Source of the DNA: Proteromonas lacertae
Lineage: Eukaryota
NCBI GenBank assembly: GCA_002245135.1
Contig: NGBS01001162.1
Span: 124,001 to 188,000, forward strand
Length of the DNA stretch: 64,000 bases
Direction: 5' to 3'
Part shown: one piece after another, positions 15,001 to 58,465 of the stretch
Numbering within the stretch: position 1 is the stretch's first letter
Layout of the letters: each line of letters begins with the position of its first letter
Program-made: the position numbers and the translations under genes
The notes under the pieces: generated by a model
Database searches by the model: none
Told to the model about the DNA's origin: nothing
The model's input: only the letters and a program-made list of their open reading frames with translations

Positions 15001-15104
15001 TACCATCGAATGAGCATCCTTTTATGGTGCCTAATCGCTATAAATAATAATAATATACTGGTGCTTGCTATAAACACACAGATAAAAAAGATTAAAATTT
15101 TCAT
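1..15104 (-). CDS. Giant (>=5000 aa, 3' end outside window) secreted/surface protein with putative Ig (He_PIG-like) repeats, three PA14 domains, galactose-binding/F5-8C-like domains and many HRM-like 4-Cys modules
   Basis: ATG at 15104 gives a signal peptide (MKILIFFICVFIASTS). GT-AG introns at 15031-15058, 2380-2412 (in-frame) and 1923-1956 join exon 1, the 4323 aa ORF and an apparently open frame running to base 1. Motifs: LPxGLxIDxxTGxIxGxP (He_PIG), GLxGEYY...NNFVVxWxGY (PA14), NLIDG...YTLWTAND...NPKSW (discoidin-like), Cxxx(G)WPxT...C...G...RxC...W...C (HRM-like). Confidence 0.88.
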
Positions 15105-21500: not shown

Positions 21501-22159
21501 TATACAATACAGTTAATAATAATACAAATGATATAAGCAGTTATAAAGATCGTGAAGATAGACAATTACATGTTTCATCAATTACACCATCTTTAGCAAT
21601 GAAGATAGATGCAAATGAAAATCAGTTGATAATCTCAAGTAATAACATAGAAGAATGTCAAATCAATTATTATATTATTGATACAGAATTGTTATTTAGT
21701 GATACACCATTTTTAAAGAAGATTGATTCATCAGTATATAATTATGTTTATCCCAATTACAGTGTAATTCAAAAGATAAGTGAAGAACATATGAAAATAC
21801 CAATATTGGATGAATTTAAAAAGAAAACAGGAATAATTGAGATAGTTTATAATGGAAATCAAGTTCATGAATTATATAATTATTGCTTATTCAGTGTGAT
21901 GATAAAAGAGAATATGGGAATATTGCAGATAATAGAGAATGAAAATCACAAACCATTACCTTGTGCTTATATAAAAGTATACAGCAAAGATGAGAATGAT
22001 AGAGCTGAGTTTTATAAAGATGGATATAGTGATTTGAGTGGTAGATTTGATTATGCTTCGATTAGTACAGATCAAATGGATAATGCTGTTGAATTTGGCA
22101 TTTTAATTATGAGTGAAAATCATGGAAGTTATATTACACAAGCAAAAGTGCCTAAGTAA
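15591..22159 (+). CDS. Large (~2144 aa) conserved hypothetical protein, similar to Dictyostelium AbpF / large bacterial hypothetical family
   Basis: GT-AG introns 15645-15671, 15729-15765, 15964-15996 and 17092-17128 join three listed ORFs into one frame. Recalled family motifs: LEKYAFAEDR, ELDGLIP, GVYVIELTGNGHQSRILVNRG, HTEYNPFINPRIH and C-terminal YIKVYSK...FYKDGYSDLSGRFDYASIST. The family name is from memory. Confidence 0.75.
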
Positions 22160-22269: not shown

Positions 22270-25200
22270 CTAATGCTTTGTTAATGTCGCAATTTTGTTC
22301 AACTGCTTATTTGTAGTGAAAGTTCTTGACATATTTCCTGTTGCAAATGACATACTACTTAGTTGATGGGTTGATCTAGATGTAGTAGACACACTAACAC
22401 CTAAGTTTGTGTTATTAGCTATATTAGCAGATCCACTTAATGTATCATTTTTTGCATCTTCATCATAATGTATAACAACTATTTTTATACCATATTCTAA
22501 TATATCAATAATTATCACAGATAAATTAATTCCCATAGATCTTAATAGAAGAACCGAATCAGGATCAGTATTGATATTAAAATCAAGCAAAACCATGATT
22601 GCTCCTAACACTAAAATAACAGAAGATGATATAAATAAACTCAATGTGTCACTATGTTCATTAGCTAAATTTTTAGTTGAATTGGACAATATAAACAATA
22701 TTAATGCTGGTAAAAAATCACTAACTAATTCAATTGCTATGAATGGTGTTGATATTGTACATTCTCTAATTGTAACTTCATTAAAATAGTCACTTTCTGA
22801 TGAACTATATGTTCCAACATACTCATTTGGATCAATTAAAAACCATAATAACAACAAAAGTGTTTGAAACAACATAAATGCTATCCAAAAAACAAATGTT
22901 CTATAAACTGTAATTCTTGTCTTTTTTATTGATCCTTTTATTCTAAATCTCTTCTTGTACAACTTTGTTTCACTTGACATAAGCACTGAAAGTAAACACT
23001 TTACACCAAGACTTAATAACACAACTCTTGCTGTACAAACTCCGTTAGAAGATGAAGGATAAACATACATTGGAATTGATCCAAAAGTAACAACAAATAA
23101 TGATAATACCACACCATAATTATGGGCTCTTCCTAATACTTTAATGATTAATTGCTTTTGATGAATTATAACAAATACTAAACATACAATATTAAGTATC
23201 ATTGCAACTCCAAATAATACATATGCAATACTTAATATTCCTGTATTGTATTTATAAAATATGTTATTCTTTCCAAATTTACATTCTGTTGGTAATCCTG
23301 ATGGATATGGTTCAGCTTCAAACAAATGTTCAGATCCTCTAGTAGGGAAAACTTGAATAAACTTAGCATTTCTATTAATCTCAAATATATAGGAGTTTCT
23401 TGATGAATATAATGATTCTTCTATTTTTATACTTCCTGATGGAGCACTTATTTCTAATCCTACACTTGACAATTGGAAGTATCTTAATGGAGGTATAACA
23501 CTATTCGAATCAGCAGCTGCATTCTGATATACTTCTTGCCAAATCATAAATGAAGTTTTAATAGATTCAAGAGTCTCATCTATTACTTTATTAACGCCAA
23601 CAAAGCCTTCTGTCGTACTAACGAATGATTGAGCTAATGATGTAGAAATAACAGAATCAAATCCAGTCACAACTAAAGAACCATATGCAGATGATAATAT
23701 TTCACTTGTATAATCATTTGAAACATAATTCAATATTGCTACAATTGCTTCACGACTAGTCAATCCATTTGAAGTATATTTGTTAAAGAAATTCTTACTA
23801 ATATCTCCTGATAAGTAATACAATATAGCTACCCTGTCATATTCATCCCTCTTCTGTTGAATTGAACTAATTGCATTATTTAATGAACTTTCAACACTAT
23901 TAGGATTTATAGTAAGTCTAACTAAATTATGTTTATTCTCTTTGTAATGATCTTTCACATAATAATTTACTATTGTGTAATATGAATCGATAATATCTGA
24001 ATCTTCACCTATGAATATTAAACATTTAATTTCTGGTTCAAAATTGTGCAAATAATACTCAATAGACAAAAATCTTTGGGATGCAGTAGATCCAGAAATG
24101 ATATGATTTCCGTTACATGTTCCTCCTTCATTTAAATCGTAAGAAATCCATATTCGATTACTCTTTTTAGATATCTCTTCTGCATTCTTTTTGCATGCTT
24201 CAGATTTACATCCAAAATAAGAAATAACTTCATTATCATTGATATATTTACTTGATAAATTACTAAATTGATCATAAGTAGATGCAAATATAAACTCTGG
24301 TATTAATCTCTGATTATTCAAACCACCATTAGTATTTAGTTCTTGGACTAAAGAATATTCCATTAACATTGAGTTTACTTCAATTTCTTTAGATTCAGTA
24401 TTATCATCATGGAAAAATATCAATTTTAATGCTTCTGGTCTAAATCTATTATTATTATTTTCTTCTAATATTCTATTTTCAGAATCACTTGTAAAGTCGC
24501 ATATATAACCTTCATTTTCAGGGAATAAATGATTCCATGCTTCTGCTTTTTCACTTTGTGATGCATAATCAGCAATTGAAAGTGTTTTATCTTGAGCTAT
24601 TTTCACTAAATACACAATTCTGTTAGTAAAACCATCAGAACTCATTTCTATTGTTCCTGAAGGTGCAACTGTAGTATATCCATACAATGCTTTACCAACT
24701 TTATCATTATCAAATGACATAGTATAAGATATAATAACATTAGCCCACAATCTTACAGATGTATAACCACTTTCCATTGCTGCTGTAATAATACAATTTT
24801 GACCATATCTATCATTCATACTTGTTACAAAGCTTTCAGAACTTGATTTAAAAGTCATTGTGTCTGAAGAAGATAAGCCCATTTCTTTAATGAATGAAGT
24901 AAGGATATAAGCACCATCTAGGCACTTTCCATCAATATAATCCATTAAATATCTATCTAAACTAACAGATACAACATAAGTATTCTTCATATTGATATTA
25001 AATCCACATAACCAATTGAATAGTTTAATGTTATTTTGTTCTGTAACACTAAACAAGACTACTGAATTTTTATCCAACTTCTTAGGATCAAAACCTTCTG
25101 GAACATAATTCTTATTTGATTCAATATCACTTAAATTGTATAAGTGGAAATCTAAATTGATATTATCACATAAAACCTTAACTCCTCTTGCCAATTGTTT

Positions 25201-28200
25201 GCTAAATTCTTCATCATCTTGAAAAACATACACATGATATGTATAAGGTAATATATACTTCCAAACACCGTTTATCAGTTGATTAGAACTTAATTGAGTT
25301 GAAATAGTATATCTTGGACATTCTTCAGTAATAGTCAAACCATTAAAGAAAAACAATTTCTTCTTTTCTTCAAATATTGTATATATATTAAGAGCAATAA
25401 CAGAATTTGCAACTCCAAAAACAACAACAACTTCATCAAGTCTACATAATTCTTCAGCATAAGTCTTATAGAGATCAATATCAGATTTTGCATCTTTAAT
25501 TAATACTGAAATCATTGTACCAATAATACCACCATCTTTATTGATTTCATCAATTGCTTGAATAATTCCTTGGGTAATAGATCTTTCAGTTGTATTATAC
25601 ATGCCACTGTATGATGTTAAAATTCCAATTGTCTTTGATGTCTTTCTATACATTTCTCCATATCCATTTTTAAAATCACAAATATACTTTGCATTATTCA
25701 CCCAATCTTTATAAGGTATTGATTCATATATACTTGCAGATGTAAATATAATATCGAACCCATAATTCTCATCATTTTCTTTCATCTTTCCATATATAAT
25801 ATATTGATTAATATAATTATTAAATCCAATATTCAGATTTCCACCACTTGGTGATGCATAATTTAAATTATAAAACTCATTTCTTAATGCATCTGCTTTC
25901 ATACTCTGCAATTTATTAACTGTGGTTATATAGATATCACTTGATATATATGCAGTATACATAATCTCACTGGCATAATTTGTAACAGATAATATATCAT
26001 CCTTCATTTTAGTATTATGAGTATTATCTAAATTAGTGAAATAAGTCTGAGCTGAATAGAATGATTTTACACCTCTTGCTGCAGCATTTGATGCTGTTGA
26101 TAATGACACTATATTATATTTACCTCTATTTGCTTTATTTACATTTTCTGTTAATAATTTATCTAATAAATAATGTAAACCAGAATCACCATAGTATAAA
26201 ATGTAACAACCATATTCACTGGTAGAAGCAATTAGTGCTTTTACAGCATCTGTAATAATTTTGGTGGAGTCTTTATCATCTGATGATGAAGATGAGGATG
26301 ATGAAGAAGATGAGGATGAGGACGAATGAGATTCTGATAAATCAAGAGTATTGGACGAATAATCAATATTAGCACCAACAAAATCCAAATAACTGTTAAT
26401 ATAACTGTAATACTTTGATCCAACGTCATCATTTGTGGTTAATACACAAAAATGTAACGTTTCTGGTTGTGTAGGTTCCATAATATAATCAATTATTCTT
26501 CCTACAAAACTTGGCTCCTTCAACATATAAAATACATTTTCATAACAAGTTTCTCCTCCTGTATAACCAATTTCGAACAACGGTATATTCTTTTCAACTA
26601 ATAATGGGTTTATACTCTTAAGACATAGAGATGTAGCTGTTGTAAATATCACCCCTTGTTCTACTTGACTTAAATATGCTCTTAATAACTCAATACAAAC
26701 ACTATCACTAGACTGTAGATCATAACTTTGAATAGTAACTCTTTTATTCAATAATCCATTTCCATTATTGTTCAAATCATCAAATAATAATTCAAAGATA
26801 TTCAATACATATAAATCAGTCTCTCTATATTTACCAGAAATTGATAAGCCAACAGCAATTGTAATAGTATCAACTTTCTTTCCAGATCCAACACTAGGAT
26901 CAGTGAAATCACATATTAATCCGTCTGTTTCTTTAATATCCCAACTCCATGCTAATGGTTCTTGAATTCTAGTTTGACTGTAAATAGATTCTAATATACT
27001 TGTTCCATCTTTGTGAACCACTTGCATTATAAAATATGGTAAAGAAATATGATTATTATCAAACATCATTGTTTCACCAGTACAACTATCTATATTTGAT
27101 CTATACAACTGCATTCTTATTAATGTTTTATTGTGATATCCTACTTTTTCAACAGCTTTACTCCAATACATTAATGCTAAATAGGAACTGTGAGCTAATT
27201 CATTTGCATCTAATTTGTCACCATAACTACTTCTAAAAGATTGTCTGAATCCACATTCACTATTAATTTCATCAAAAAAAGAACCACCAAAGAAAAGATT
27301 GATATTTCCAGATAATGATAATGATGCTAATATATTCCTATCACTATTAATAGATATAACAAAAAATTTATTAGTTATTGTATTACCTGATTTAATATGT
27401 GCATCTGTAACTAAACTATCAAAATAATTTATGAAATCTATTGAAGTAGTATCATCTAATGTAAGAATAATAACACATCCTGTTGTTACATACTTTTCAA
27501 CTATTTTACTAGCTAATGAATGAGTTGTTCCACTTCCTGATTCTACTAAATCATTTCCAATAACAGTAAACAATTCAGACAGCGCATTATCCAATATTGT
27601 ATTAATTAAAAAGTTACTGTCAGTATTTGTACCAATGAAGTATAATGAATTATCCACTGATGCTTGGTCAATATAAGTCGATAGTGATTTTGTGTATGTA
27701 CTTGGCAATAACCCTGTATAGAATATATTTTCATCACATTCTTGACCTTCAAATTTAGCAGGATACCATAAATATTTACTATATTTTGTTGATTTAGAAA
27801 AAATTTCATTCACTTTTGTTCTACATATTTTGTTTGTACATCCAACAACAAATATAATATCTTCATCATTCAACACAATATTTGCTATGTTTGTAATATT
27901 ATTCTCATTGGTGGTATCAAATATTATATAATCAAGATATAAGTCATGCAAAGTATTCTCACTATTCAAAGAATCAATTGAAGCAATCATTATATCTACA
28001 GCTCTTAATTCATATTTTTTATTCTCACCTGTAATAGAATACAATAATGCAACTTTCTTATTCTCTCTTTCAAGTAATGAACCTCTTTTTACTTTATCTG
28101 TTTTTGATATTTTCCATTCACAATAATACATTGTATTGTTATTTCCATATTGTGCATTGTATGGGTTAATATGATTAAGATCAGACGATTCTACTAATGA

Positions 28201-31200
28201 TTCTATTGTATAACTCTTATTGTTCGGAAAATAATGAACTTGAACAAGGTCGAGATGTAATGATATTTGATTATTTGAATTAATAACTAAATTATCGATT
28301 ATTTGACTAACATCTGTATGATGAACAGCATTAAGTAAATCTTCAAATGAATATGGAACAAAACCTTCTTCACCTGTATCTTCAGCGAAATTGATTGATA
28401 ATAATGCCTTTGCAGCAAATAATACTGACAATATAGCAGATGCTGATGCTTCTTCTTTAATGAAACTGTATCTATTATCAGCTATTTTATAAATACTATC
28501 ATCTTTAAAATGTTTTCTTTTGTATGTATCTATAAAGTAATGTCCATCAAATAATTCCCAATAAGAATCGTCAATAATATCAGGTAATTTTACATTATAC
28601 GACAGAATTGTATATGTTGAAGAATCATAATTATTCTTTTTTATCTCTAAGAACAAATCAGTAGCTGCAGTTCCTTCCAATAATGAAATAATTATACCAG
28701 ATTTCATACTGCTTATAATAATATTCATAATAATATCCATTTTGTAGTTAGTAATTGGTATTCTTAACACATTTGCTACAGAAATACCTCTTTTTGTTAA
28801 TTCATACTGAACATTCAAAGCATTCTTATAATTCATTTCAGTGTCAGTATACAGCACAAATATATCTCTCATATCTGATCCAGGTAAATAGAAATAAGCT
28901 AATGTTGAAATATATTCCGTAAATGGGGTATTCATATAAATAATATTCTCACTACATTCATAACCTTCATATAAAAATGGATAGAATAAAAGTAATTCAT
29001 TATCAGCTAAATCATCCATAACATATTTTCTCATTTCTGAGTTTGATAAACCAAATATAATTCTATTACCTGTTTCATTTATTGCTTTTCTGACATATTC
29101 TCTTGCTAAATCATTATCTGATTCTATATTTATAACTTCTGTGACAATCATTCTTTTATTAATGCCATGAAAATATTCATTAACATAATCAACAGCTGCT
29201 AAATATCCACTAACCAATGATCTTGAATTGAATGAATAAGTTCCAGTAAATGAAATCAATATATAGAATTTCAATGAAGTATATGTCTCACCTTTTCCTG
29301 TTTCCTTTGAACAGATTTTATATTCGTCTTCATTGAAACCATGTCTAAAACTTTGAGCTGGCCAATTGACTGATATAGTTGAAACTACATCAGTAATTCC
29401 TCCTGGCTTCATTTGTAAAATAGTAACAGGGAATGGTATATTTGTATCACTATCAGACATCTTTGTAACACCAAATGATGATTCTAATTGATAAGTACTT
29501 AAATATTCCATTATTTTTTCATTACTAAAATCTCCTAATTCTTTATATTCTCTAACTAGTAATTCATATGCAATAATTGCTCTTGTTTCAACTTTTGGCA
29601 TTTGATATGATCCACCAAACATATTTACTCCAATATTGTATATATTTGAAGCTGTATATTTGTCAGAATGACAACTGGCTAATGCATATTGCTCTTCAGT
29701 GTAATATTGGTCTATTTCCATGAATGTTTCTTTCGAAAAACTAAAAATTGGGACTTTTTGTGAAGCTTCAGCTGAACTTGTGAATAAATTAGTAAAAGCA
29801 CTTTGATATACTTTGAATAAAGTCAAATAACTTTCTGTAGTGGTTAAATAATTCAAAATAACACCTCCTTCTGGTATATATAGTTTATAAGAAGTCAAAA
29901 AGTCAGAAATATTTTCATTCATTGATGATGGATTTGATTCATTAACAACTAAATGTCTTTTAACAAATCCACCTAAACTTGATATTGTATCTAGAATCAT
30001 GTTATTATCAATATCTGGTAATTCAGTTGATGTAATCAACATGATATTTGGAGAAATATAACTCACAATATAACCAATAAATGCAATAACTCTTTGACTT
30101 GGGAATGTACCAAGATCAACACTATTATAATATAATTAAAAACAAAGAAATATACATTCTTTTATCACAAATATCAGCATTCTTGTTAATTAATGAAATT
30201 AATAATAAATCAGGGTTTTCTTCTAAAAATTCATTCTGTTGTTCAACTGAACAAGTTGTTATAGCAACTGAAGAAGCATTCATTCCATTAAACTCATCAC
30301 AATAATACTTAACCAATATCTATTAGGATTAAAATAATAATAAAAATATATACTATGTTATAATTCATATCATTATAATTAGATAAATACATATCTAACA
30401 AAAGCATTAAAGATTCTTCATTAGTGTTAATAACTAAATTAATTACTAATGGTTCTGAATTATCACTCACTAATGTACAAGCTTCTGTATCTCCGTCATT
30501 TCTCTATAAAAAGAATAGTAAAAAGCAATTATATACATAAGCTAAATAAGCTGAAATTGACATAGGCATGATTGTCTGTAAAATAATAGTATAACCTTCT
30601 CCTTCTTCTAAATCGTTCATTTTTATTAGAACATATGAATTTGACAATACCATATCATCTCTTAATTGTATTTCTCCAACTGGTAAATCAAGAGTAAGTC
30701 CTTTCAACTGTCTTTTAATTTCCTCATATGAATAATCACTAGCTTGCTCATATACTGTTTTTAATATCATCATTGAAGTATATAAATTTAAAATATGTTC
30801 ATTCAATAATTCACTATTATTACCAAATTTTGAAGTAAAATCATTGACAAATATTTCATTCTGTTGATTGGATCTACTATCTCTTGTATAGGATGTAAAC
30901 ATCAAATGTCCATTCCATATTTCTTTATCATCAACCCATTCTATCATTGTATCAAGACTAATGACAGTATAAACAGCAGGATCCATATCCTTATCTCTCA
31001 TTAATCTCAGCATAACATTTATATCTTCCCCTAACACTGTAAATATCATCATTCTTGTTGTTTGAATTTCTTTTAGTGTATCTGTAGCATTATCTAAAGA
31101 ATATGTTGAATTGAGATATATTGTTATATAATCAATCTCTCTGAATGTATCAATAGTAAGTGCAATTGCCTTACCAACATCATGACAGAATTGGTTATCA

Positions 31201-34140
31201 CACATAACAATTGCTGCTTTCTTTTCTGGACAATATTGCCATATTGTAGCTATTGAAGCAAATGCATAATGATTAGGAACTCTTCCTACTTGAATGATAT
31301 TTGAATAACATCTTTGACCTTCACCTGGATGAAAGCTGAATAATATTTTCTTCTTCTCTACTAAAACATCAGCAAGAGCATCTCTTTCTGGATTGCTTGT
31401 AGTTCCAAAATAAGCTAATAAATCTTCATCATCACTATTCTCTTCAACGTATTTCTTCATTTCATCGATTGTGTTAAATATTTTTAAAATTGCTTTCAAC
31501 AATTTGTTATTTATTCCGTCTTTCATATTCATATAATCTGACATTATACTTGAGTATAATTTATAATTGTTCATATAACGTTCTACTTGAGCATTAGTGA
31601 TATATAAGAAAACAATCTTATAATATGGTCTATTAACAGTCACACCATCAATCCAAGAACATTGTATACTAGTATCAGTAAATGCATTAGTTGATATAAC
31701 ATAAGATGATGATAATATAACTTCCACACTTTCTGTATCATTATGAATCTTTCCAATATGTAATTGAGCTGAAAGTGTTCCTTGACTATTCCATTCTACA
31801 TTACCACCAGGTCCTGGAATACTAGAAGCATAGACAATCATTTGGTTGATTGTATCTCTATCATCATTTCTTGCTAAGTTGACAGCATTCGCTAATAACA
31901 TCATACTTACATAACTAGTAGCCATAGAAGATGAATAATGTTTGATTGTTACATCGCTAAGCTCATTGATTCTTTCCTTAAATTCATTACTGTCTGTTGT
32001 ATTCAAATCCTCAAAATAATAGCCAATAACATAAGATCCATCATACTATAAAAAAAACAATACATAAACATAATATATATATATATATATATATACATTT
32101 GTCCATCCATTATCAGTATTATCCATTACTTCTTCATCTAAAGTAAATGAAATAACTGGATGATTCACATTATCATGGACAATTTCATTGTACATACTGA
32201 AAAACACTTGTAAATAATCTCTTTCTAATACATTAGCCACTAAACAACCATCTGTGCATCTTGAATTTATAGCTGCGCATACATTCAATGCTTGTTCTCT
32301 ACTTCCATCTTTCATTACTTCATATATTACAGTATTGAAGCCACCATATTCATTAGTAATATTCTTTAACGATGCAGTTGCCGCTTGTGAATACATACCT
32401 TTACTTGACACTACGAATAATGTCTTAAATGTAACTATATTAGTGAATTCCTGTACAACAAATTTCCACATTGAATATACACTTATTCCTTATAATTATT
32501 AAAGAAAATAATAAATTTAATAGCATTAAAAAAAGATATAGGAATAACATTCTTCTTACAGAAATTACTTCCATCAGGTTGAAGAGATATATAAGTATAT
32601 GAAGTAATGTTATGACCATCAATTTCACTTAAGAACTTAATTGTATCTTCAATCGAAGATGTACTAAATGAAGTTATTATATTGTAGACCTTTCTATAAT
32701 CAGTATACTCCTTATATAACTGTTCACTACTTGCAGATATATCCATGTAAATTGGTACTATTTGTTTATTTAATACCGGTTTCTATTAATTGAATATTAT
32801 AAATTATATAATATATCATACTTCAGCATTTAAATAATTAATTGCAGCTTCAAATGCGTGTATAATATTCTCATCATATCTTGACAAGTTTCTAATTGTT
32901 ATATCTTCATGGTAAAAGTTTCTGTATGTAAATAACAATACATATAATGCATCAGGTTTGTACAATGAATCAGATACTAATTGATTGCAAATGTATTCCC
33001 TTGGAAAACCATTTGTAATTGTATATGATACTTCTAATGACAATTGAATAGGTTTATTATCTACTATTTTATCATTCGTTGAATCTACTTTTGCCAAATC
33101 AACAATTGTTGCAATTCTATTACCAGGAGTTAAACCTACTTTCATTTCCTCATCACCACTTTTATATATTGTAATATACTCATCATTATTATATCCAAAG
33201 TACACTATATCACTTCCACTTTTGAAATTACCTTTTAAATATTCATTACCAATTGTTATATATAATTTGTACATTGAAAATAATATAACTGATTCTATAT
33301 TTAAGTCTTTGTTTGTTAATGCTGTACCACTTCCACCGATTTCAGTAAGTAAAGTTGGAGGTATTTGTGCATTTTCACTGAGTATATATGAGTCATCACT
33401 GCTAGCACTATGATAGACAACTTCTCTTGGAACAACTGGCATGTTGACCAATTGGACTTTTTTACCTGTTGGAAATGTTCCAGCTTTCCATTCATCAATT
33501 AAATCTGTGGTACTATAAAAATTGAGTATGTAAACTTCAGATATGTTTGACGTTTGTAAATAAGTGGTAAGTGAAGTAATGATTTCATTTGCTTTATCTG
33601 CTTTTTTATCTACCTCAGTAACTGAAACACGAGCGAAATTAAATAGTTTTATTGTTTCAGTAATGAATGTTCCTAATTTATCCTTCTCATCTGAATCATA
33701 AGCTACACAGACGTTTTCAAATCGATTGATTTCTTTGGATATAGTATATAAACTTGATGAAACTGTATCATAACCAAAAATAATGTTAGAATAACAAATT
33801 GGACTTGTATAAGGTATAATATTCCAAATATAAATATCATATGCAACAGCTACTTCGTTTATCATATTATAATCAGCAGATTTGAAGTAAGGCAAACACA
33901 GTATCGATATAATTTTTCTTAAACTTTTCAAATTCTGAAATTAATGAAGTATTTGTTATTTCCATCTATTTTTATCTTTTTTAGAGTATATTCGGTCGTT
34001 GTAAAGTAAGTGATTATTGAATCAACACCTGTTGGTAAAGTTTCTCCAGTAGAATATACAAAAGGTCGCTCTAATATAATGCATAGTACATTATCGCAAT
34101 AAAAAGCTAATACTAAGAAAAACAAATTAGAAAACGGCAT
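22270..34140 (-). CDS. Receptor A: ~3875 aa class C GPCR-like protein; signal peptide + 9 tandem UrtA/AmiC-type periplasmic-binding (Venus flytrap) domains + 7TM
   Basis: Introns 32783-32821, 32490-32539 (AT-AA), 32046-32096, 30504-30536, 30320-30353 and 30122-30155 join six listed ORFs. The junction with the first (signal peptide) ORF near 33930 is unresolved. Repeats carry UrtA-like motifs (IGILTSYSG..TERS, AIDEINKDGGIIG, LLFYPFLYEGYECSENI, WYPAKFEGQECDENIFYTG). Seven hydrophobic segments lie at ~23240-22480, including a CTARVVLLSLG TM3. Confidence 0.85.
26278..26325 (-). repeat. TCN trinucleotide tract encoding a poly-Ser insertion in VFT domain 7 of receptor A
   Basis: GATGATGAAGATGAGGATGATGAAGAAGATGAGGATGAGGACGA on the + strand; protein reads SHSSSSSSSSSSSSSSDD. 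Confidence 0.8.
32490..32539 (-). other. U12-type (minor spliceosome) intron, AT-AA termini, in receptor A
   Basis: 5' ATATCTTTT, branch-like TTCTTTAAT 8 nt before the 3' end ...TATAA|GGA. Removal gives CKKNVIP|GISVYSMW in frame. The paralog has a phase-0 intron at the equivalent position. Confidence 0.75.
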
Positions 34141-36390: not shown

Positions 36391-36573
36391 TATGATAAAT
36401 TTTATATAAATTCAATGATTGAATAAAACAAAAATTTGAATTTCAGTTTTTAAAAAATCAAACTTTTCATCAAACTAATTTTAACGAATATATTTTTATT
36501 ATAATTTTTCATCAACAAACAATTCATACGATAATAAACACATTACTAAATATAATAATAATACTATCAATCG

Positions 36574-47139: not shown

Positions 47140-50100
47140 ATGAATCAGTTTTGTATTTTTTTCACATTCACATTATTTATTTTTCCTATTTATTCTAGTA
47201 ATGTATGTCATTTACCAAATTATATAGTGCAAACTGCTCAAAATTATTCAAAATATCTTCAATTACCATATAATGTGGTATGTGACGATAGTAGATTGAA
47301 CATATCAGATCGTTTTGTTATTAGTTATAATGAAGATGTTAATTATGAAAAATTAAGTCCAAATATAAGCTATTTCATAGTTACTAAATCGCTAATGTTT
47401 AATTGTAGTGAGAATATATTCCATGTTCACATGAAGCTTAGATCAATTTCAAAAGTTGTAGAGTATTTTATTCGCAATGGTTATAAAAAAGTAATTCTAC
47501 TGTCAGATAGTAAGAATGAAGTAGAAATTAAAAATATTGTGGATATATTTACATATTATGGAGGTAACGTAGATTTAATAGACGATAAATTCAATGAATC
47601 TAGGTTAAATGACACGCTAAGTAGTTGTACATCTTATAAAGATGTTATAATATTTAATTTCTTTATGGATGCTAGAAATCTATCTAAGTCATTATTATAT
47701 TATCAGCAATATAAAAGTCTCTATCCTGTCTATTTTGTAACATTTTATGTTGATGAATTATATATATTCGTTGATCCTGAGTTAGTTAATGACACACATA
47801 TACTATCAGGATATCTTCATCATTATGATAATGATGAAAAAAGATCATTTTTAGAGAAATTTGATCTGGATAGTATAAAAGACTTTGATGATTTATTATT
47901 TCAAGTGTATTTATTCATTTTTCTTATTTTTACTAGGATAATTGTATTAGAATTCCTGAAATTTATTCCACAATCATTTCCAAAGGATAATCCATTTTTA
48001 ATAAGAAGACAATTAATTGATAAATCAATCAAAATTGCAGGTCAAACCATTTATTTTTCTCCATGCAATTCATTCATAAGGAATATTTATCTTGGTGATG
48101 TAAATTCAACAGGACAAATGACTAATGTTGTAGAATTTCAAACGAATGTGCCAAATTATAGAGATTTATTAGATTTAAGAGAAAGATGTCCATATATAGA
48201 AGAAGCACATTCAATTACTTTTGGCTTTTTATCTACACTAACAGATGTGCTTCATTATAATTTTTTGGTCGGAATTAATGCAGCGATTGATGATATAAAT
48301 AGATATGAATCTTCGATGAAAAGTCATATTATTTTAAGATTACCTCCAAGTATAGATGCAGATATTAATGAAGCATATAATTATCTTAAATCATTTAATC
48401 CAGTTATTTTGTTTTATTTTATTGATAATGATAATACTACTGATATAATGAGATGTATATATATATATATATATTTAATTTCTATTAATATTTTAAATAG
48501 TAATAAATGATGATGAAGATTCTCCTCTATTTTTTACTTATGGTTTCTTTTCTGGTAAAATATGTAATCCTAAATTCTTTTATGTATATTTATTTTCTAT
48601 TTTTTTATTTAATATTAGTTGGGATTATCACAAGATGTTAGATTCAGGTATATACAATATCTAAGTAATTCAGATTCAATATTTACAGTTACTACTACAA
48701 CAAAGTATATTAATATAAATTATTTTTTTTCTATATTTTATTATTCTGATTAATAGATATGGTAAAGCAATGACTAAAATTGCACATGATAATATCTATG
48801 TAAAAGAAAATATTAACATTATTCAATATACATGCGATTCTGCTTTTAGACTTGATGTTCAATCAATGTTCAATTTTATGAGTACATTTTTAAAACCAGA
48901 AACTGTAATTTATATTATAATTGAATCATGTAATTTTCAAAATTTGGTTTTAGAATTTCTACCACAATATATAACGACGAATAATAAAGTGAATTTCATT
49001 AATTTTAATCCTGATTGTGGAATATATAAATCATATGGCGTATATATATATATATATATATATATATTATGTTTTTCTATATATATTTATAATAGTGGGG
49101 AAATTATTATTTATCTGATCCATTTATTGATATCTCAAAGACAACTACATTATATAAAATCAATAAACTAATCCTTCCAAATGGTGGTATTTCATCAACT
49201 CTATATACTGGTTATTATGGTGTTTATATATATTACAATGCATTAATGTCAGCAGGAGTATCTGATTTATCAACCTTATTACCAATAATAAGTGAGACAA
49301 AAATAAAATATGATAATCATGAATTATTCATTTCTGATGATCATTATTTCTCTTCATGTTTACAGTATGGAAAAATAGATGAAAATGGTGAGGTGGAATT
49401 ACTAGACAAATCTCCTTTTTCATATGTTTCACATGCTTATTATCAAATGCAAAATATGGATTATATTAAAACATGCAATTGGAATATAAATAATAAAAAT
49501 GATGAATATACTTCATCTTTAACTAATTTTGGAATTTTAATTGTTGATAATAACTATTTTCTTGCAGATTTTGCTCAAGCATTTATCAATGAGATTGCAG
49601 TTACAAAAACCTATGATTCTCTTGTTTTTAATGTTCATTATTATAATAATATGAATACATCATTAGAAAATTTTTTACCAATGATAAAGTACTTTCATGA
49701 TACAAGAAAAATAAGATGTGTAATTCTAAATGAAGAGTTTAATCCTATAGATTTTGGTACTTCTGATCTTTCATTCATTATTATTTCTTCTTATGATGAA
49801 AATCTATGTGATGATAGAGTATTCTATTTTGGCTATTCCAGAAATGAAATTTTGAGAAGTTCAATCGCAAGTGCATTTGAAAATCAGATTGACAATTTCC
49901 TTTATATTACAAAAATCTCATCTGGTGAAGTTGATGCAACTGATCAATATTTTAGACATTTATTAAATGGTTTGTATTATTATGATATAAATTATACTGT
50001 CATATATTATACTGAATCAGAAAAGATCAAAGATTATATTACTAATGCAATAAAACCTACATTTATGTTTATTGGATTAACAGTTGAAGAAGATTTCCTA

Positions 50101-53100
50101 TTAACAAAATATTTAATAGAAGAAGTTGATTATGATTCAAATTTAATATCAATTGTTCATTCGAATAATCTGTATGTGTATTATAAAGAAAATTTGCCTA
50201 TAAAGAATCATTTTTTCCCAATTCATCAAATTCAGTTACATCAATCAGATATTGGATCAATAATAGAACCGTATATTAAAACAGTCCCAATTGATTTTTA
50301 TGCATTATATATTTCATTGTATTATATTTTAAATACTGTTTCTGACTCACATTATGAATATTCTTCTGATTATATTAGACAATTATCAAAAGCAAATTAT
50401 AGAATAATTGAAAATGGAGTTGGATCATACATATCAAATCACCAATTTAATTCACCTTTTTCATTTGCTAAAGTAATTAGTAAAGATAATATTTTCTTTA
50501 CTTATTTCCCATCAGAATATGTACCAAGCACATTTACTCTTAAAAGTTATGATATAGTGGGAAATAATCAACTTCAGAAATGTGATTTAGATTCAGGATT
50601 AACATATATAAATGTTACTGTTGTATATTTAGGAATAATTAGATCATCAAGTGATTTATCTCAAGGATTTTCACAAACAATGAGATTAGTAATTGATATA
50701 TACATTGATTCATTTCAAAGTAAAACAAAGAATTTGTATTTCAAACAAATAATTGAAGATGTTGATAAGACTACTGATCCAGAAACCGTATTAAAGAAGT
50801 TTCATGATTTACACATAACAAATGTATTTGGGTTATTTTATTACAGTTTATTGCAGAAATATATTCCTTATCTAAATAAATACAATATGATTGCATGGTA
50901 TACAAGTGGAATACCAGGCCCAAGTTTTTCTAATGATTATGTTGTTTCATTTTATATTCCTCTTACTTATGTTAGTTTAATTGAGAAAGAATCAGATTAT
51001 GCACTTCTTATATATTCAGATAGATTATATTTCAATGAATACATTGATGAAATTCTAAATTCGTTATATGATTATAAAAAAGTGAAAGTATTACCTTATA
51101 AATCAAATCGATCTGATATTAAATACGTTGATCATTTTATAGATGAAGTGATATTAGAGATGTTGGAGAATGAAAATGATATATATTTATTTCTAAGAGC
51201 TGATGATTTTAATGAAATAATACCACAGTTAGTAAGGACATTTAAAGCATCAGAATCATTAGAAAAATGGTCAATAACATCATTTATTGATTTTCCAATA
51301 TTAAAACAAGATGATGAAGAGTTTAATGGTATTAAATTCTTAACTGCTGTAGATTTTGCTCACCAAACAAATATAAATAATAATATAATAAATATATTTA
51401 AATCATATAATCTGAATAGTATTAGTCCAACAGATGTTGAACAGTATATGTATATTGCTTTATCAGCCTATGTAGCATTAGTTCAAAAAACAGACTATAA
51501 TAACGTATCATTAATTCAAGAAATGATAAGAAAGAAGAATGAATTTAATGACACTTCAGTTTTTGAATTTGCGCTAGTTGAACCATCTTTAATAAAGAGA
51601 ATAAATAAATATGAATATAAAACATTGCTCTATTTTAGTTGTGTGCCAAATTTATTAGAGAATAAAGATACAATGCAGCATTATCAATGTCCTAATGATC
51701 ATACGGTTATAGATTACAAATTAAATTATACAATAGCTGTTATATATGATAGAAAAATAAAATCAGATTATTTTATCATCACTATCGCACATATATTTCA
51801 ATCAATTGCAGGTTCATATATTAATGACAGGTTTATATCAGTAATGGAGATTAACTCTGATGAAGATGATTTGTATTTATCAGAAATTGAAAACAAAATT
51901 GACATTATTGAATTAATAATATGTGCTACTGGGAGTAGAATAAGAGATAAAATCGATGAAAAAATACTTAGAGTATACAAGAAAGTAATGTATTATATAT
52001 ATGATGATAAAGGATGCAATTGTTCTCCTTATATCTTTTATTTTGGTATGTCAACTCAAGGAAAAGTAAGAAGTGAAATTAATTATATCTCTGAGAATTG
52101 TAAAGCCATAACAATGATTTATGATAATTCAAAACATTCAGAAGAAGAGCTTGAATCATTCAAGGAAGAATTGAAATATTATAATATTCAATATGGAAAT
52201 ATATATAAAGTTCTTGATGAAGATTCTGATTTTACTGATTTTATTAGGATAGTGACATATAGTATATCAATTAATGAATGCATTTTAAATTTTCTGGATG
52301 ATTATAACACCGAAAATATAATTAAAGTATTCAATAATTATTCTTCATTAACATCTGATATGAAATTAATAAGTCTTAGTTTGAAGTTTAATGCATTTAA
52401 ATTTCCATCATCTAATGTAGATCATATAATTATTAATTATTTCAATCCCATTAATCCGTTGCCTATTTATAACAATATATTAGAATCTATAGAGAATCTG
52501 TATGGTATAAAATTACAGTTACAACAATATATTTATAATACAGTAAATGCAGTTAGTTTCTGGAAATTAATAATGAAGAAAACCAAAAGTAAGTTTCATT
52601 CAACCAATGGTTTTCTATTGGCTCACTACAAACAAATATTTAATAATGGAAAATATGATTTTAAAATACAAGAAAACCATCATATGTCTCATTCAAGACA
52701 TGTTATATATCAAAAATATAAGGATAATAAGCCAAAAGTAATATTTGAAAGTGTTGGTACTTATGAAACATATGTTTATTCTATTGATGATTCTAAAATG
52801 TGTTTATTAATTGATGATGTATTTAATGAATATTATACACCTAAAAGACTTGTTACAATTGGTTTTGTAATTCCATCTAGTACTAATAGTTACCAAAATA
52901 TATATCCAAATATTGTGACTGGTTTAGTTTCATATTTTGTTATGACAGAAAAAATCTACAAATTAATTGGAAGAGAAGATGTAAGATTTAAATATGTGAT
53001 ATATAGAGTAAATGATGATAATGAAAATGAATGTATAAAAGCAATTCAAAATTCTATAGATGAAGAAGTTGATTTTATTGTTGCACCAGTTATTTCTTCT

Positions 53101-56100
53101 TGTGTAGAATCAATGGTAAACTATTTGAATAAATCTTCAATAATTATATTTGCAACAGATTACTTAATGGGTACTACATGTAACAGTAAATTTGTCTACA
53201 CATCCAAAGTTCCAAATCAAATCATTAATCCAACTTTTGGTTATTTTACAGAATTTCTTGCTTCTACTAAATACTGTCATTTGATATATAATCATAACAA
53301 AGTATCAAGAGAAATTTTAGATGAAATTATTGCTTATTCAATTTCTCAACAAGGAAATGGTTATAGTGTGTATAAGTTTACAAAAGTATCCGCAGAAACA
53401 TATTCGATATTATTAAATATTTTTAAGCATCCAGGTCTTATAATGACATTTCTTGATTCAGTTGATTTGGGTTATTTTTTATCTGAATTAAGTCATTATA
53501 GTTTGGATAAAAATAAATGGAAGATTTTCTCTCTTCTTGTCAATCATGAATCATTAATATATAATATTCCATCAAAATATTTAGATAATGTTTATATTTC
53601 ATCATTAGTAGTTGATGAATCAAAATCGAAACCAATTCTAGATTATTATTTCTTAACAGATCATCAACCTATTTATTCCGGTTCTACAGAAGTTGCATTT
53701 GAATTTATATATGAGATGATTATCCATAATGAAACATTAAAAGATTTATATGGTAAAGTATTCCACAATGAGATAGTTGGTGATTTTCAATTAGATGAAT
53801 CAAATAGTATAAGGTATCCTCTATTATTGGCATATTATAATAACGGTGTCAGAGAAATTGTATTTCCATCTTCCTATCTATTCAAGCCAAATCCTCTTTT
53901 ATTCTCATTGAAACAAGAACAATGTGACTTTTCAATATCCAATGAAATTACTCCAGTGAAAATACAAAAAGTTCATTTAGGATTGGTTTATCAAAAACAA
54001 TCTGATTTGATAATATCATCATTACTTGCTCAAGTATTGAATTTTATGGCATTTAGTATATATATATATATATTGTTATTTATTTCTTATAATAGACATA
54101 AAACAAGGAGTTCAATATTTTGCTGGTATTGTATATTTAACAACAGATATAGAAATTAGAGACTTTATACAACAATATATAGATGATGATTCATTAAATC
54201 CATGTATTCTATTAACACATCCTCAGTTTAAAACAGAAATATTAGATTTAATAAGAAAGACTGATAAAATGTTTTATATTACCAACTTTAGAAATGAATA
54301 TTGTTTAAAGAACTTGATAGCAACAGAAGCTAATACATTGTTTTCACTTAACAAAGTGATTCAATTGATACCTTATGCAATATATGAAGTTGACTATTAT
54401 TTATTCTATGATGCTAAATTGAAAGATTTATATGATCAAATAAATGCTCTTTTAGCTGAAAATGGTTATAAAGCAATATTTTCAAGATCAATAGAAGATT
54501 ATGATGAAGATGTATTATTAGATAATTTGGAATTCAGTGATAGAAGTGCTGTTGTATTCTGTGATTCAAGTGATGAAATTTGTGAGATGATTAATAACTT
54601 AATGCAGTCTGAGCTTGGAGATGGAGTTGTATTTTTCATACAATGGTTTTACGAATCTCCTACTTATGTTGATTCATTATACCATCTTATGTATGGTTCA
54701 GCTTATCCATCTGATACAGAATTTACAAGTTATACAACTTTGAAGTATTATACTGAAAAGAATAATAAATCCTCACTGTTTGATTATTATTCATTGAATA
54801 AAATATATGATTTATTGAAGGTAATATATATGTGGATGGAAATCGAAAAATTAGATGATTCAAAAGAATTTTCAGAACTTTATTTAAAGGAAATAGAAAC
54901 TGAAGTTGGTCCAATCAAATTAAATCCAAACAATCGAATAAGTTCTCATATGATATTATATTTTCACTACATTGATATGTTGTTAGAATTCAAATTATCT
55001 AATTTTGTAGAATTGAGACAATTCGATAAAGATTTTGCAGAAAAAGATACTGCTCTTCATTGCAACTGGAAAGATGGAAATGGTTTGAAAGAAAAAAAGA
55101 AAATGGTGGTAGCAATAATACATGAAAAGAAGTATTATGAATCAAAAACTTCATCTCTATATGTAATGTTAAGAGTTTTAAAAGAATCTCAATATTACGA
55201 AGAAGGATTGTTTGAAAAATACAGTATAGAAGCATCAATAAAATTCTGTATGAAATGGAAACCAAATTGTATGCAGAATATTTTGGATGAGTTATTTAGT
55301 AAGGATTTTTTAATAGCAATATTTGATTTTACTACAAATTCTCTTGAAGATTATCAAGAAATGATTGATTCAAAGAATGTATTATATTTTGATTTAGGTT
55401 ATTTGATAAACTCCTATTGTTCAGATAGAATATTTGAAATTGGTTTAAGTGTTGTTTCACTTGTTAGATATACCCTGTTAGATTGTATTGAAACAATAAA
55501 AATAGCAATTATAATCCATAGTAAAGATGAATTTGGATATTCATATATTAACGCATTTGAAGAAGAAACTAAAGGATTTATGATTAAAATGATTCCTATG
55601 GCTGTTTCAGATTTGTTTGATATAATAGAACTATTTCCAATATGCTTGAAAATACCTAATCAGTGTGTAATTATTTCAACAGCTTACATAGAAAATCTAT
55701 CTCTATTATTTTTATTGCTATCTGCTAGTAAAATAAGTCTTGAGAATGATATATTGTTTTATTATTACTTTTATTCAGATACAATTAATCAAGATTTTAG
55801 TAATAGTTTTACAGGAGCAAAATATATTTCCAGTTTTAATCCATCAGTCAATTTTTATGATTATAAAGGAAATGATCCAATGATATATGATTTTAAAGAA
55901 TATATAAAAGAATCATTCTGTGGTGTAGTTGAAGCAACTCCATCACTTGAAGGTGTGATAGTTGGATATGAAATTCTAAAGAAACTGTTATTATCATCTG
56001 AAGATGTTAATTTTGATTTAGTATTATCAAAAGCACATAATTTGTATTTTGATACACCAGCTGGTCCTGTATATTTTGGTACTAGTAGTTTCTTAATGAT

Positions 56101-58465
56101 AGATGTGATGTTTTCTAAAATAACTAATCAGTATAAAATAGAATACCAAGATTCAAGAAAAGCAGTAAATCCAATTTATTGGAACAATACTTGTTCTACT
56201 TTAATAAAGCCAATAATAGTTGGAGTTATATTCGATTTCTCTAATACTTCGTATTTATCATCACAAGTGTATTTTTCGTTAGTAAAAGAATTAATTGTAA
56301 ATCAAAATAGAATTGGAGGGATAAATGATAGACAAATTGTACCAATACTATATCCATTATATCACAATGAGAATGATACTGTAACAATTGAAGATTTGGT
56401 GAGTAATGAGAATATATCTATCATTTTAGGATGTGTTACACATTACTGTAATTATAAGATATTACCTTATTTATCATCTTCTGATAAATTGTTATTTTCA
56501 CATTTATTCTATCCAGTATCTTATGGCCAACCAAATGTAATTACGATTGGGTTGTCGGTTGAAAGAAGATTAAAAACAGCCAAAACATATTTAGATTCTA
56601 CTACATTTAAGGCATATGTGTTAATATATCATACATCTTTGAATGATCCAGATGATATATCCTATTTCAAAGAAAATGGTATTTCATTTGAAAAAGTATT
56701 TCAAATTACTCATGATAATTATACTGAAGATATTGATAAAGCATTGAATTATTTGGAAATTGAAACTAATAAAAGAGAAATAGCTTTGTTTAATTTATTA
56801 GGTGAATCATTGTTATTACAATTTGAAGAGTCATTTATACAAAGAACTATAAAAAACAACAATTTCATTCAAATCATTTTCAATTTAAATGAATATTTAT
56901 TAGGTTTTGATCTATTATCAAAAATATCTGGATCAATAGTAGTAACTACTTTTACTGAAAATTCAAATAGTCATTTAGCTACATTATTTGAAGAAATGAT
57001 AAAAACAAGATTTGGTTCAATTCGAATAACTCAAGGAATGGCTTTATTCGATGTATCAATAAAAATGTTAGTAGCAACTTATAGACAGGCAGAAAAACTA
57101 CTTACTGAAGATGGTATAGTATATGATGAAATGAATGAAGATTATATTTTTCCATTTGAATATTTAAGAAGAGCAGCTCAGATGTCCAGTTTTGAATGTA
57201 GTTGTGGAACAGTGGCAGTAACTACAAGTAATGAAGTGATTTATGGATATGAGGTTGGATATATTTCTCCAAATGGCAATATTATTTCTGTAAAGACAGA
57301 TGTTAGAGAGTTTATATTACCAAACAGAAATAGTAAAGATTGTTACTTTGGTCCTAAGATAAGAATTTATGAATTACCTGTTACTGTTACAATTCCTACA
57401 ATTGTTATAACGGCATTAATTCTAATTATGTCAGCAGTAGTGTTTGTGGTTGTGATTAAGTATAGAAAGAAACTAAAAGCTTGTAGTCCATTTTTTATCT
57501 GTTTTTATATTATATCTGCTTGTATTTCAATTCTTTTAGAAGTATTATATAACAAAATAAATGATTCTGAAATAGGATGTGAAATAGTAGTGGTATTATT
57601 GTTTATATCAATAATCAACTGTGTATCAGTTATTGTGTTTAAAACCTGGAGAATTCATGCAATTTATAATAATGTAGGAATAAAGAAAACTAAAATAACT
57701 GATATGATAGTATTATCGAAGATTAGTTATATACTAATACCTGATGCTTTAATTTGTGTAGTATTTGGATTATTTAATACTTTAGGATCAATTCAATCAA
57801 ATAAATCAATAGAAATGAGTACAACAATAGAATATGTAATATTTCAAAAATGTCAAATTAACATATACTTTTTAGTTTTTCAAATAGTCATGTTTCTATT
57901 AATAGCCTCATTGGGATTATATTATTCTTGGGGAACAAGAAAGACAAGTAAAGAATATAATGATTCTCAAGCAATGGCTATATCTCTTGGTTTACTTACT
58001 TTCTTAATTGTAGTTACAGTGATATTAGAAACAAGTCTAGATTTTGAATTGGATATAAAGTATATATTTGAAATAATTGGATCATCAGCAGTGTTATTTG
58101 TTGTATTAATGGTGTTATTTGTTCCAAAATTCTATTTGATAGTAATAAAGAAAAAAGTATTAACAATATCTACTGAAGAAAGTATTAAAAAATCAGTTAA
58201 AGCTGATATACAACCACAAATAGTGGATGGAGCGTTTCTAGTTGATTATTCTAAAGTTACACGTACATATGGCACTAAGACAGTAATATATCCTCAGCAT
58301 ACAACAATGAATACAAGATTAGGAGCAATGATTCCTGGTGCTTATGCAAGAAAGAAAGCTTTGGAAGTTGTGAAATCTTATGATCATGATGATTTTGATG
58401 GAGAAGGCGAAGTGAAAAGAAGTAGTGATGACAGTGATAGTGAAGAGAATGAAGGAAAAAAATAG
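47140..58465 (+). CDS. Receptor B: ~3688 aa class C GPCR; signal peptide + 9 tandem divergent periplasmic-binding (Venus flytrap) domains + 7TM
   Basis: GT-AG introns 47907-47936, 48455-48500, 48584-48618, 48705-48756, 49040-49095 and 54056-54095 give one 11067 nt frame. The 7TM (~57380-58150) has class C motifs LKACSPFF, FKTWRIHAIY, TRKTSKEYNDSQAMA and LFVPKFYLI. Repeats include QNRIGGINDRQIVP, LGCVTHYC and TPAGPV. Confidence 0.88.

What the first reader, a model, noticed from the sequence alone, without database searches (positions are those of the whole stretch)
22270..34140. Class C GPCR with nine tandem bacterial UrtA/AmiC-type Venus-flytrap domains (receptor A)
Seen: after splicing, a signal peptide is followed by nine ~390 aa repeats, each ending in a Cys-containing linker (YICNQ, IQCSW, EACTL, KICSK, YYCEW, LICDF, YICDF, YICDF, TECKF), then directly a 7TM domain. 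Known: canonical class C GPCRs (mGluR, CaSR, GABA-B, T1R) carry a single VFT. Repeats 5, 6 and 8 match the urea/amide-binding UrtA/AmiC family (Peripla_BP_5) rather than animal ANF-receptor VFTs. Inference: a beads-on-a-string multi-ligand chemosensor that I do not recognise as a described architecture.
Basis: partly seen in the sequence, partly recalled or inferred. Interest (0 to 1): 0.93.

Follow-up and report, generated by a model that had tools for sequence, protein, structure and literature searches.

The report
Nine-flytrap receptor built from urea binders
This protist gene encodes a class C GPCR-type receptor whose outside part is a chain of nine fused copies of a bacterial urea-binding protein, likely of cyanobacterial origin; its own nine pockets have lost the urea-binding residues and likely sense other molecules, while distant nine-unit relatives keep them and would be urea receptors.

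Summary
Confirmed. The minus-strand gene (34140-22270, about 3,875 aa) has nine UrtA-type flytrap repeats, then a class C 7TM. A model of repeats 8-9 plus 7TM (pLDDT 92, pTM 0.83) matches UrtA and mGlu folds.

Corrections: the 'Cys linker' is the C-terminal tail of cyanobacterial-type UrtA, so each unit is a whole UrtA, likely disulfide-pinned. No repeat keeps the urea site (0-1 of 5 essential residues). The 7TM lacks the TM3 Lys and TM7 Pro. The 5' end and one splice junction are unresolved.

It is a family. Receptor B in this window, P0046, P0200 and P0201 also have nine units, and P0022 at least nine. In P0022, P0200 and P0201, 20 of 27 units keep the full urea site, and the membrane-proximal unit never does. 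Two-unit relatives exist.

The host is likely Proteromonas-like, not Blastocystis. Best reading: an ancestral urea-sensing receptor whose pockets were rewritten into a chemoreceptor repertoire. I found no such architecture in the papers searched, but the Proteromonas genome paper was not available. New variant of a known kind.

The parts
22270..34140 (-). Receptor A gene, 7 exons, about 3,875 aa
34072..34140 (-). Likely signal peptide (hydrophobic residues 5-23)
   Evidence: hydropathy; no signal-peptide predictor was run
33893..33965 (-). Unresolved change of frame: one or two frameshifts, or a 92-125 nt GT-AG intron ending at 33935
32985..34070 (-). Repeat 1, most degenerate (profile match 33898-33374); limits approximate
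31638..32950 (-). Repeat 2, spans three introns; limits approximate
32783..32821 (-). Intron, 39 nt, GT-AG
32490..32539 (-). Candidate 50-nt AT-AA minor (U12-type) intron, phase 0; alternative 80-nt GT-AG intron 32568-32489
   Evidence: PMC10639083 passages
32046..32096 (-). Intron, 51 nt, GT-AG
30475..31649 (-). Repeat 3 (33-nt intron 30536-30504 near its end); limits approximate
29287..30465 (-). Repeat 4 (34-nt introns 30353-30320 and 30155-30122); limits approximate
28087..29310 (-). Repeat 5 (profile envelope)
26878..28110 (-). Repeat 6 (profile envelope)
25657..26895 (-). Repeat 7 (profile envelope), with a 15-Ser insertion
24466..25671 (-). Repeat 8, best conserved; UrtA fold including the tail
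23248..24480 (-). Repeat 9, membrane-proximal, type I PBP fold, ending in a short stalk strand
22465..23244 (-). Class C 7TM: seven helices, beta-hairpin in ECL2; TM3 Lys and TM7 Pro lost
22270..22464 (-). Short cytoplasmic tail (about 64 aa) and stop
47140..58465 (+). Receptor B: paralogue, about 3,689 aa, nine units (8 by profile plus one weak unit filling a 360-aa gap) and a 7TM with intact coupling motifs

Best explanation
Receptor A is a single-chain class C GPCR-type protein with nine whole UrtA-derived flytrap units fused head to tail, which likely works as a chemoreceptor for small solutes other than urea, with ligand-driven closure of the outer units likely passed through the last unit to the 7TM. 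Shown: the architecture; the UrtA sequence and fold; loss of the urea site in all nine units; retention of two Cys per unit; fixed position identity of the units across the host lineage's paralogues; loss of two coupling motifs in the 7TM. Inferred: (1) the two Cys form a disulfide that pins each tail, so the next unit starts about 12-30 residues later and packs on it; (2) the last unit is an adaptor rather than a sensor and sits on a GABA-B-like stalk and ECL2 hairpin; (3) the ancestor sensed urea, and its working core was one intact plus one dead unit; (4) in this lineage the pockets were rewritten for other ligands; (5) A itself probably couples weakly and acts as the binding partner of a motif-intact subunit such as B, signalling through G-alpha.
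For: Architecture. Fold: model pLDDT 92.3, pTM 0.83; r8 against UrtA Z 47.5, rmsd 2.7, 381 aligned; r9 against the GABA-B2 ectodomain Z 29.7, rmsd 3.7; 7TM against mGlu2 Z 26.6, rmsd 2.1, 238 aligned. Origin: conserved relatives' units cover the mature cyanobacterial UrtA profile (positions 51-436) end to end; 25 of 25 organism-named hits among 120 listed are cyanobacterial UrtA; eukaryotic units are sister to filamentous cyanobacterial UrtA, SH support 0.967, same topology with the tail removed (no supports). Disulfide: in 199 prokaryote-type domains, 113 have both Cys, 80 neither, 6 only the first, 0 only the second; they are the two best-conserved columns in the host lineage, 99% and 94%. 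Urea site (residues from PMC10392092): 20 of 27 units of P0022, P0200 and P0201 keep 5 of 5; the membrane-proximal unit keeps at most 1 of 5 in all 6 conserved 7tm_3 relatives; P0071 and P0086 have two units only. Position identity: A against P0046 7 of 8, P0020 7 of 7, P0001 6 of 6. Context, if the host is Proteromonas-like: 116 class C 7TM, 182 PBP-I, 7 G-alpha and 75 RGS entries in P. lacertae (PMC12129017 Table S5).
Against: No ligand, expression or coupling data. Old pocket columns are no better conserved than average among close relatives (0.43 against 0.49; 443 of 2000 random column sets score as low), except in r5 (0.61 against 0.45); this fits diversification and decay equally. A and 6 close relatives lack the TM3 Lys, and A lacks the TM7 Pro. 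The 5' end may carry frameshifts. Only r8-r9-7TM was modelled; r9 sits on the 7TM at a different angle from GABA-B (rmsd about 24), so the known activation path may not apply. PMC4352136 notes that linear flytrap arrangements may dissipate signal from distal units. The Cys counts and the tree are not corrected for relatedness or for how the bacterial rows were sampled. Host identity is inferred.
Confidence: 0.55

Rival explanations
1. Structural stalk or adhesion receptor: the units are dead sensors kept as a stiff rod of fixed length (about 40-60 nm if extended, my estimate) that binds gut surfaces, bacteria or glycans and signals contact or force, as adhesion GPCRs do.
For: No unit keeps the urea site; 0 of 113 host-lineage units have 4 or more of the 5 residues. 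Fold residues and Cys, not pockets, are conserved. Unit number and order are fixed across paralogues. A neighbouring giant Ig/PA14 surface protein points to a cell with long surface proteins.
Against: The same nine-unit plan occurs with intact urea sites in P0200, P0201 and P0022, so the length predates loss of the site or arose without it. The r5 pocket is conserved above background in two groups of relatives. Flytrap pockets change ligands readily (general knowledge of PBP-I families).
Confidence: 0.25
2. Receptor A is a recently inactivated or non-signalling copy in an expanded family.
For: A change of frame near the 5' end whose only clean splice solutions remove part of repeat 1 and look like coding DNA; one junction needs a non-canonical intron or loses a conserved Cys; coupling motifs are lost.
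Against: The remaining 3,790 or so codons are open, including 2,621 in one exon. P0001 is 58% identical over six units and the 7TM and shares the motif changes, so these are old and conserved. Short indels are a common assembly error (general knowledge), and AT-type phase 0 minor introns are common in Blastocystis ST1.
Confidence: 0.12
3. A is still a urea or amide sensor.
For: Best family matches are TIGR03407 UrtA and PF13433; best folds are UrtA and AmiC.
Against: Each unit keeps 0-1 of the 5 residues whose mutation removed or strongly reduced urea binding. The summed score of six units (369 bits) is below the one-domain cut-off of 493. P. lacertae has no listed urea or ammonium transporter domain.
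Confidence: 0.05
4. The region is several genes: secreted PBP arrays plus a shorter receptor.
For: Two junctions in the first two units are unresolved.
Against: Junctions fall inside units. P0046, P0200 and P0201 carry all nine units in one open frame, and A's units match P0046's in register.
Confidence: 0.03

Closest known systems
Class C (glutamate family) GPCRs, closest in plan to GABA-B and to diatom, fungal and Dictyostelium GABA-B-like receptors
   Same: 7tm_3 fold with the TM3-ECL2 Cys pair, a type I PBP unit on a short stalk, no nine-Cys domain. Atlas neighbours are 810-901-aa diatom 7tm_3 plus ANF clusters. Non-animal members are known to recruit other bacterial binding proteins such as BMP, OpuAC and SBP_bac_1 (PMC3251606, PMC3971589 passages).
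   Different: Nine units instead of one; about 3,550-aa ectodomain against at most 1,667 aa in the PMC3251606 survey; UrtA-derived, not ANF; different tilt of the unit on the 7TM; TM3 Lys and TM7 Pro lost in A.
Cyanobacterial UrtA, urea ABC substrate-binding protein (TIGR03407; PDB 7S6E, 7S6F, 8HIC)
   Same: Fold, length, C-terminal tail and Cys pair.
   Different: UrtA is a single-domain transporter subunit. Here it is fused ninefold to a GPCR, 14-24% identical, with the urea site lost.
BvgS-family sensor kinases (tandem flytraps)
   Same: Several flytraps in series before the membrane, one to five per chain, with a closed membrane-proximal unit (PMC4352136 abstract and passages). This is the nearest functional analogy.
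   Different: Bacterial, single TM, kinase output; its flytraps are of the other (type II) class (recalled, not tested); in BvgS the proximal unit binds the modulator.
Ionotropic glutamate receptors
   Same: Two flytrap-type domains per chain; r9 matches the GluK ATD fold at Z 29.7.
   Different: Ion channels, two unlike domains, no 7TM.

Membership tests
Class C GPCR | 7tm_3 seven-helix domain | tested here: met
   PF00003 E 7e-18, 65.7 bits over cut-off 33.5; seven helices in the model; mGlu2 7TM Z 26.6, rmsd 2.1
Class C GPCR | Extracellular type I PBP flytrap | tested here: met
   Nine by profile; r8 and r9 by fold
Class C GPCR | Cys pair at the TM3 start and ECL2 | tested here: met
   Both present in A and nearly all relatives
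Class C GPCR | TM3 Lys/Arg, TM6 acid and TM7 Pro-Lys activation motifs (as listed in PMC3727952) | tested here: not met
   In A: Lys to Ser, Arg to Lys, acid kept as Asp, Pro lost; kept in B and P0022. Partly met only; it lowers the odds of direct coupling by A
Class C GPCR | Constitutive dimer | not testable with these tools
   Needs biochemistry
Class C GPCR | Ligand-driven G-protein coupling | not testable with these tools
   Needs a cell assay
mGlu/CaSR/T1R subgroup | Nine-Cys domain (PF07562) between flytrap and 7TM | tested here: not met
   No hit; a short stalk strand only
UrtA urea-binding proteins (TIGR03407) | Score above the family cut-off | tested here: not met
   369 bits summed over six units, cut-off 493
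UrtA urea-binding proteins (TIGR03407) | Urea-site residues W120, S122, Q144, Y190, N246 | tested here: not met
   0-1 of 5 in each of 9 units of A; met in 20 of 27 units of P0022, P0200 and P0201
UrtA urea-binding proteins (TIGR03407) | UrtA fold with the cyanobacterial-type tail | tested here: met
   Z 47.5, model 7-410 on chain 37-431 of 8HIC; both Cys in 8 of 9 units by column and the ninth by eye
BvgS-type tandem-flytrap sensors | Single TM with histidine kinase output | tested here: not met
   7TM, no kinase domain; analogy only

The most novel reading that the evidence does not exclude
An undescribed, widespread family of eukaryotic urea-sensing GPCRs, made by fusing cyanobacterial UrtA to a class C 7TM, in which a chain of exactly nine disulfide-pinned flytraps works as one cooperative allosteric rod whose unit number is under selection. 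The nine-unit plan was inherited or reached independently by distant lineages, and a gut flagellate turned it into a combinatorial chemoreceptor repertoire with nine different pockets per chain.
Probability: 0.3. Interest if true: 0.9.

Novelty: new variant of a known kind. Interest (0 to 1): 0.77.

Why it matters
Class C activation is understood for one flytrap per subunit. A chain of nine raises a directly testable question: how far can closure travel along a flytrap chain, and why does nine recur? The conserved relatives predict a urea-sensing GPCR, which I did not find described, and they give ready parts for urea biosensors. The family is a clear case of a bacterial transporter subunit captured whole as a GPCR sensor, and of its later rewiring in a likely gut protist whose relative Blastocystis lost the whole system.

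Tried and rejected
No whole genome is held for the window. No sequencing run was listed, which is no evidence on expression, so no reads were laid and the two junctions stay open. The metagenome scan returned 5 weak loci of 107 candidates (23-37% identity); the one inspected, L005, has only ORFs of 279-578 aa. Single-sequence folding of r8-r9 failed (pLDDT 33). The homodimer prediction for r9 gave no answer (score 0.01, alignment not used). Four 5' readings could not be separated by profile or pairwise scores, and my first impression that one short frame piece resembles P0046 did not survive shuffling (52 of 200 shuffles as high). Position identity between the host lineage and P0022/P0200/P0201 was not detected: 12 tests, best p 0.025, A 0 of 9 in all three. 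The bootstrap tree timed out, topology only. Exact look-ups of 10 window frames found none in the collection. Blastocystis as host was rejected: 0 class C 7TM, 0 enkurin and 0 G-alpha entries in 8 strains. The Proteromonas genome paper was not held. Earlier-finding look-ups returned nothing. Repeat limits in the parts list are profile envelopes, not residue-exact.
Full report
OBSERVATION. The window is AT-rich eukaryotic DNA (GC 0.23-0.30) with short introns. The gene runs on the minus strand from 34140 to 22270. Its last exon is one open frame of 2,621 codons with 7 PF13433 stretches (E 4.5e-128) and 7tm_3 (E 6.8e-18). Joining exons by coordinate gives 3,875 aa and 11,628 nt with no internal stop. 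A repeat profile built from relatives, without window sequences, finds nine units. The 5 units of A tested against 100 shuffles each all beat every shuffle, r1 weakly at 18.5 bits. Units are 12-18% identical to each other, so the array is old and not an assembly artefact.

UNRESOLVED JUNCTIONS. Five introns are clean (33-51 nt, AT 0.82-0.90). Near the 5' end the frame changes. Eight GT/GC-AG options open it, but the best-looking one (125 nt) has the AT content of coding DNA (0.72) and would remove the start of repeat 1. One or two indels are the alternative, and scoring did not separate four readings. In repeat 2, a 50-nt phase 0 AT-AA intron with a U12-like donor keeps a conserved Cys; an 80-nt GT-AG intron deletes it. 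The donor word is not rare (32 matches on both strands). PMC10639083 (passages) reports 253 short minor introns in Blastocystis ST1, 77% AT-AC and 49% phase 0, and AT-AA as the commonest non-canonical ends in animals and plants. A minor intron is plausible, not shown.

FOLD. With a 54-row alignment, the model of r8, r9 and the 7TM reached pLDDT 92.3 and pTM 0.83, with two bilobed units, a stalk strand, seven helices and an ECL2 hairpin. r8 matches UrtA at Z 47.5, rmsd 2.7, 381 aligned, tail included. r9 matches the GABA-B2 ectodomain (Z 29.7, rmsd 3.7) and the 7TM matches mGlu2 (Z 26.6, rmsd 2.1). Against full-length GABA-B the rmsd is about 24, so r9 sits at another angle. Units 1-7 were not modelled.

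WHAT THE UNITS ARE. In conserved relatives each unit covers profile positions 51-436, the whole mature UrtA, and the next begins at once. Among 199 prokaryote-type domains the tail Cys and a Cys next to the urea site go together (113 both, 80 neither, 6 and 0 singly, not corrected for kinship). They are the best-conserved columns of the host lineage's units (99% and 94%). All 25 organism-named hits among 120 listed for P0022 are cyanobacterial UrtA at 53-55% identity. In a 119-row tree the eukaryotic units form one clade (0.858), sister to filamentous cyanobacteria (0.967). A 60-row tree without the tail, and without degenerate units, host-lineage units and 9 distant prokaryote rows, has the same shape but no supports. 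Bacterial rows were chosen as best hits, so the donor is likely, not proven.

FAMILY. Three clusters at 49-61% identity hold six units plus all or part of the 7TM in one frame. Of 150 listed representatives (877 hits), 33 have three or more units; many are cut by introns. Complete or nearly complete chains have nine: A; B in this window (8 by profile plus one weak unit); P0046; P0200 and P0201, which begin with a hydrophobic leader; and P0022, at least nine because it starts inside its first unit. The search that found P0200 and P0201 allowed 2,059-6,554 aa and returned 4 proteins; all three with 7tm_3 have nine units. Nine is not obligatory: P0071 and P0086 have two, and P0038 at least three. 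Units keep their position across the host lineage (A against P0046 7 of 8, P0020 7 of 7, P0001 6 of 6; A against B 3 of 9, p 0.008). Position signal also holds for P0022-P0201 (5 of 5, 1 of 120 permutations) and P0200-P0201 (4 of 7, 7 of 5,040), but is weak for P0022-P0200 (57 of 720). Between the two groups none was found in 12 tests, so a shared origin of 'nine' is open. The organisms behind these relatives are unnamed.

LIGAND SITE. PMC10392092 (passages) names nine pocket residues, five of them essential, and a Kd of 141 nM. A keeps 0-1 of 5 in each unit; 0 of 113 host-lineage units, partial ones included, keep 4 or more. P0022, P0200 and P0201 keep 5 of 5 in 20 of 27 units, and the membrane-proximal unit keeps at most 1 of 5 in all six conserved 7tm_3 relatives. 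Pocket columns among close relatives of A are about as variable as the rest (0.43 against 0.49), except r5 (0.61 against 0.45).

7TM. The extracellular Cys pair is kept. Of the motifs listed in PMC3727952 (passages), A has lost the TM3 Lys and the TM7 Pro, has Lys for the TM3 Arg and keeps a TM6 acid. Six close relatives also lack the Lys; B and P0022 keep the full set.

HOST (inferred, about 65%). Table S5 of PMC12129017 (rows seen) lists for Proteromonas lacertae 116 class C 7TM, 182 PBP-I, 7 G-alpha, 75 RGS, 16 nucleotide cyclase, 74 PA14 and 2 enkurin entries. Eight Blastocystis strains have 0 class C 7TM, 0-1 PBP-I, 0 G-alpha and 0 enkurin. The window carries enkurin, a PA14/Ig/HRM giant and two such receptors. 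This fits Proteromonas or a related gut opalinatan; no marker-gene test was possible.

MECHANISM. Shown: architecture, fold, origin of the units, lost urea site, fixed order. Inferred: the ancestral core is an intact urea-binding unit on a dead adaptor unit, the same pair that appears alone in P0071 and, with other outputs, in P0208 and P0211. Closure of the sensing unit shifts the adaptor on the stalk and ECL2 hairpin and so moves the 7TM. Extra units add sites. In P0022 both r8 and r9 are dead, so if it signals, the signal crosses at least two units. In the host lineage each position drifted to its own pocket, giving a repertoire of multi-pocket receptors; A, with weakened coupling motifs, is likely a binding partner in a heteromer, as GABA-B1 is (recalled). 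I put this at 0.55, a structural or adhesive rod at 0.25, an inactive copy at 0.12, urea sensing by A at 0.05 and split genes at 0.03.

COMPARISON AND NOVELTY. It works like a class C receptor and meets the structural tests for the family, though not all activation motifs; it is not a member of UrtA by score or site. Exchange of the flytrap for other bacterial binding proteins is known in non-animal class C receptors (PMC3971589, PMC3251606 passages). Tandem flytraps are known in BvgS kinases, one to five per chain (PMC4352136 abstract and passages). Searches (listings) and passages of PMC12965686 and PMC12842992 showed no GPCR with tandem or UrtA-type flytraps. Atlas neighbours are single-flytrap receptors. 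Limits: the library lacks most subscription papers; the Proteromonas genome paper was not held; supplementary figure S3 of PMC3971589, on species-specific architectures, was not seen; the domain counts are in print although I saw no description of the architecture. Verdict: real; new variant of a known kind; interest 0.77.

Noticed in passing
window 47140-58465 (+): Receptor B: second nine-unit class C receptor, six short GT-AG introns, no internal stop, coupling motifs intact, units more degenerate than in A.
   Followed up: partly
P0208, P0209, P0210, P0129: Leader, intact-looking UrtA unit, degenerate unit, one TM and a cytoplasmic glutaminase domain (PF04960): a possible urea-regulated single-pass enzyme receptor.
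   Followed up: partly
P0202, P0211, P0212: Intact plus dead UrtA pair, ephrin-receptor-like repeats and about six or seven TM segments that Pfam does not call 7tm_3: the same sensor pair on another membrane domain.
   Followed up: partly
window 32490-32539 (-): Candidate AT-AA minor intron; if real, the host keeps a minor spliceosome.
   Followed up: partly
window 1-15037 (-): Giant surface protein with He_PIG Ig, PA14 and HRM domains; 4,368-codon frame plus a further frame that runs off the window.
   Followed up: no
window 35575-36411 (-), 37618-38688 (-), 43935-45000 (-), 46144-46668 (+), 60335-60926 (-), 61616-62266 (-): Enkurin-domain, PTEN-like, family 4 glycosyltransferase, PARP, RPS23 (recognised by eye; 118-nt first intron) and WD40 genes.
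   Followed up: no
window 17129-22159 (+): 1,676-codon frame with no Pfam match, ending 110 nt from the stop of receptor A on the opposite strand.
   Followed up: no
P0077-P0166 (many): Prokaryote-type proteins fuse one UrtA-like unit to kinases, GGDEF, MCP, SpoIIE, cyclase, TrmB, SIR2 or arginase domains: the module is a widely reused sensor.
   Followed up: no
P0200 residues about 3040-3150: About 110-residue helical-looking insertion inside unit 8, whose urea site is intact.
   Followed up: no
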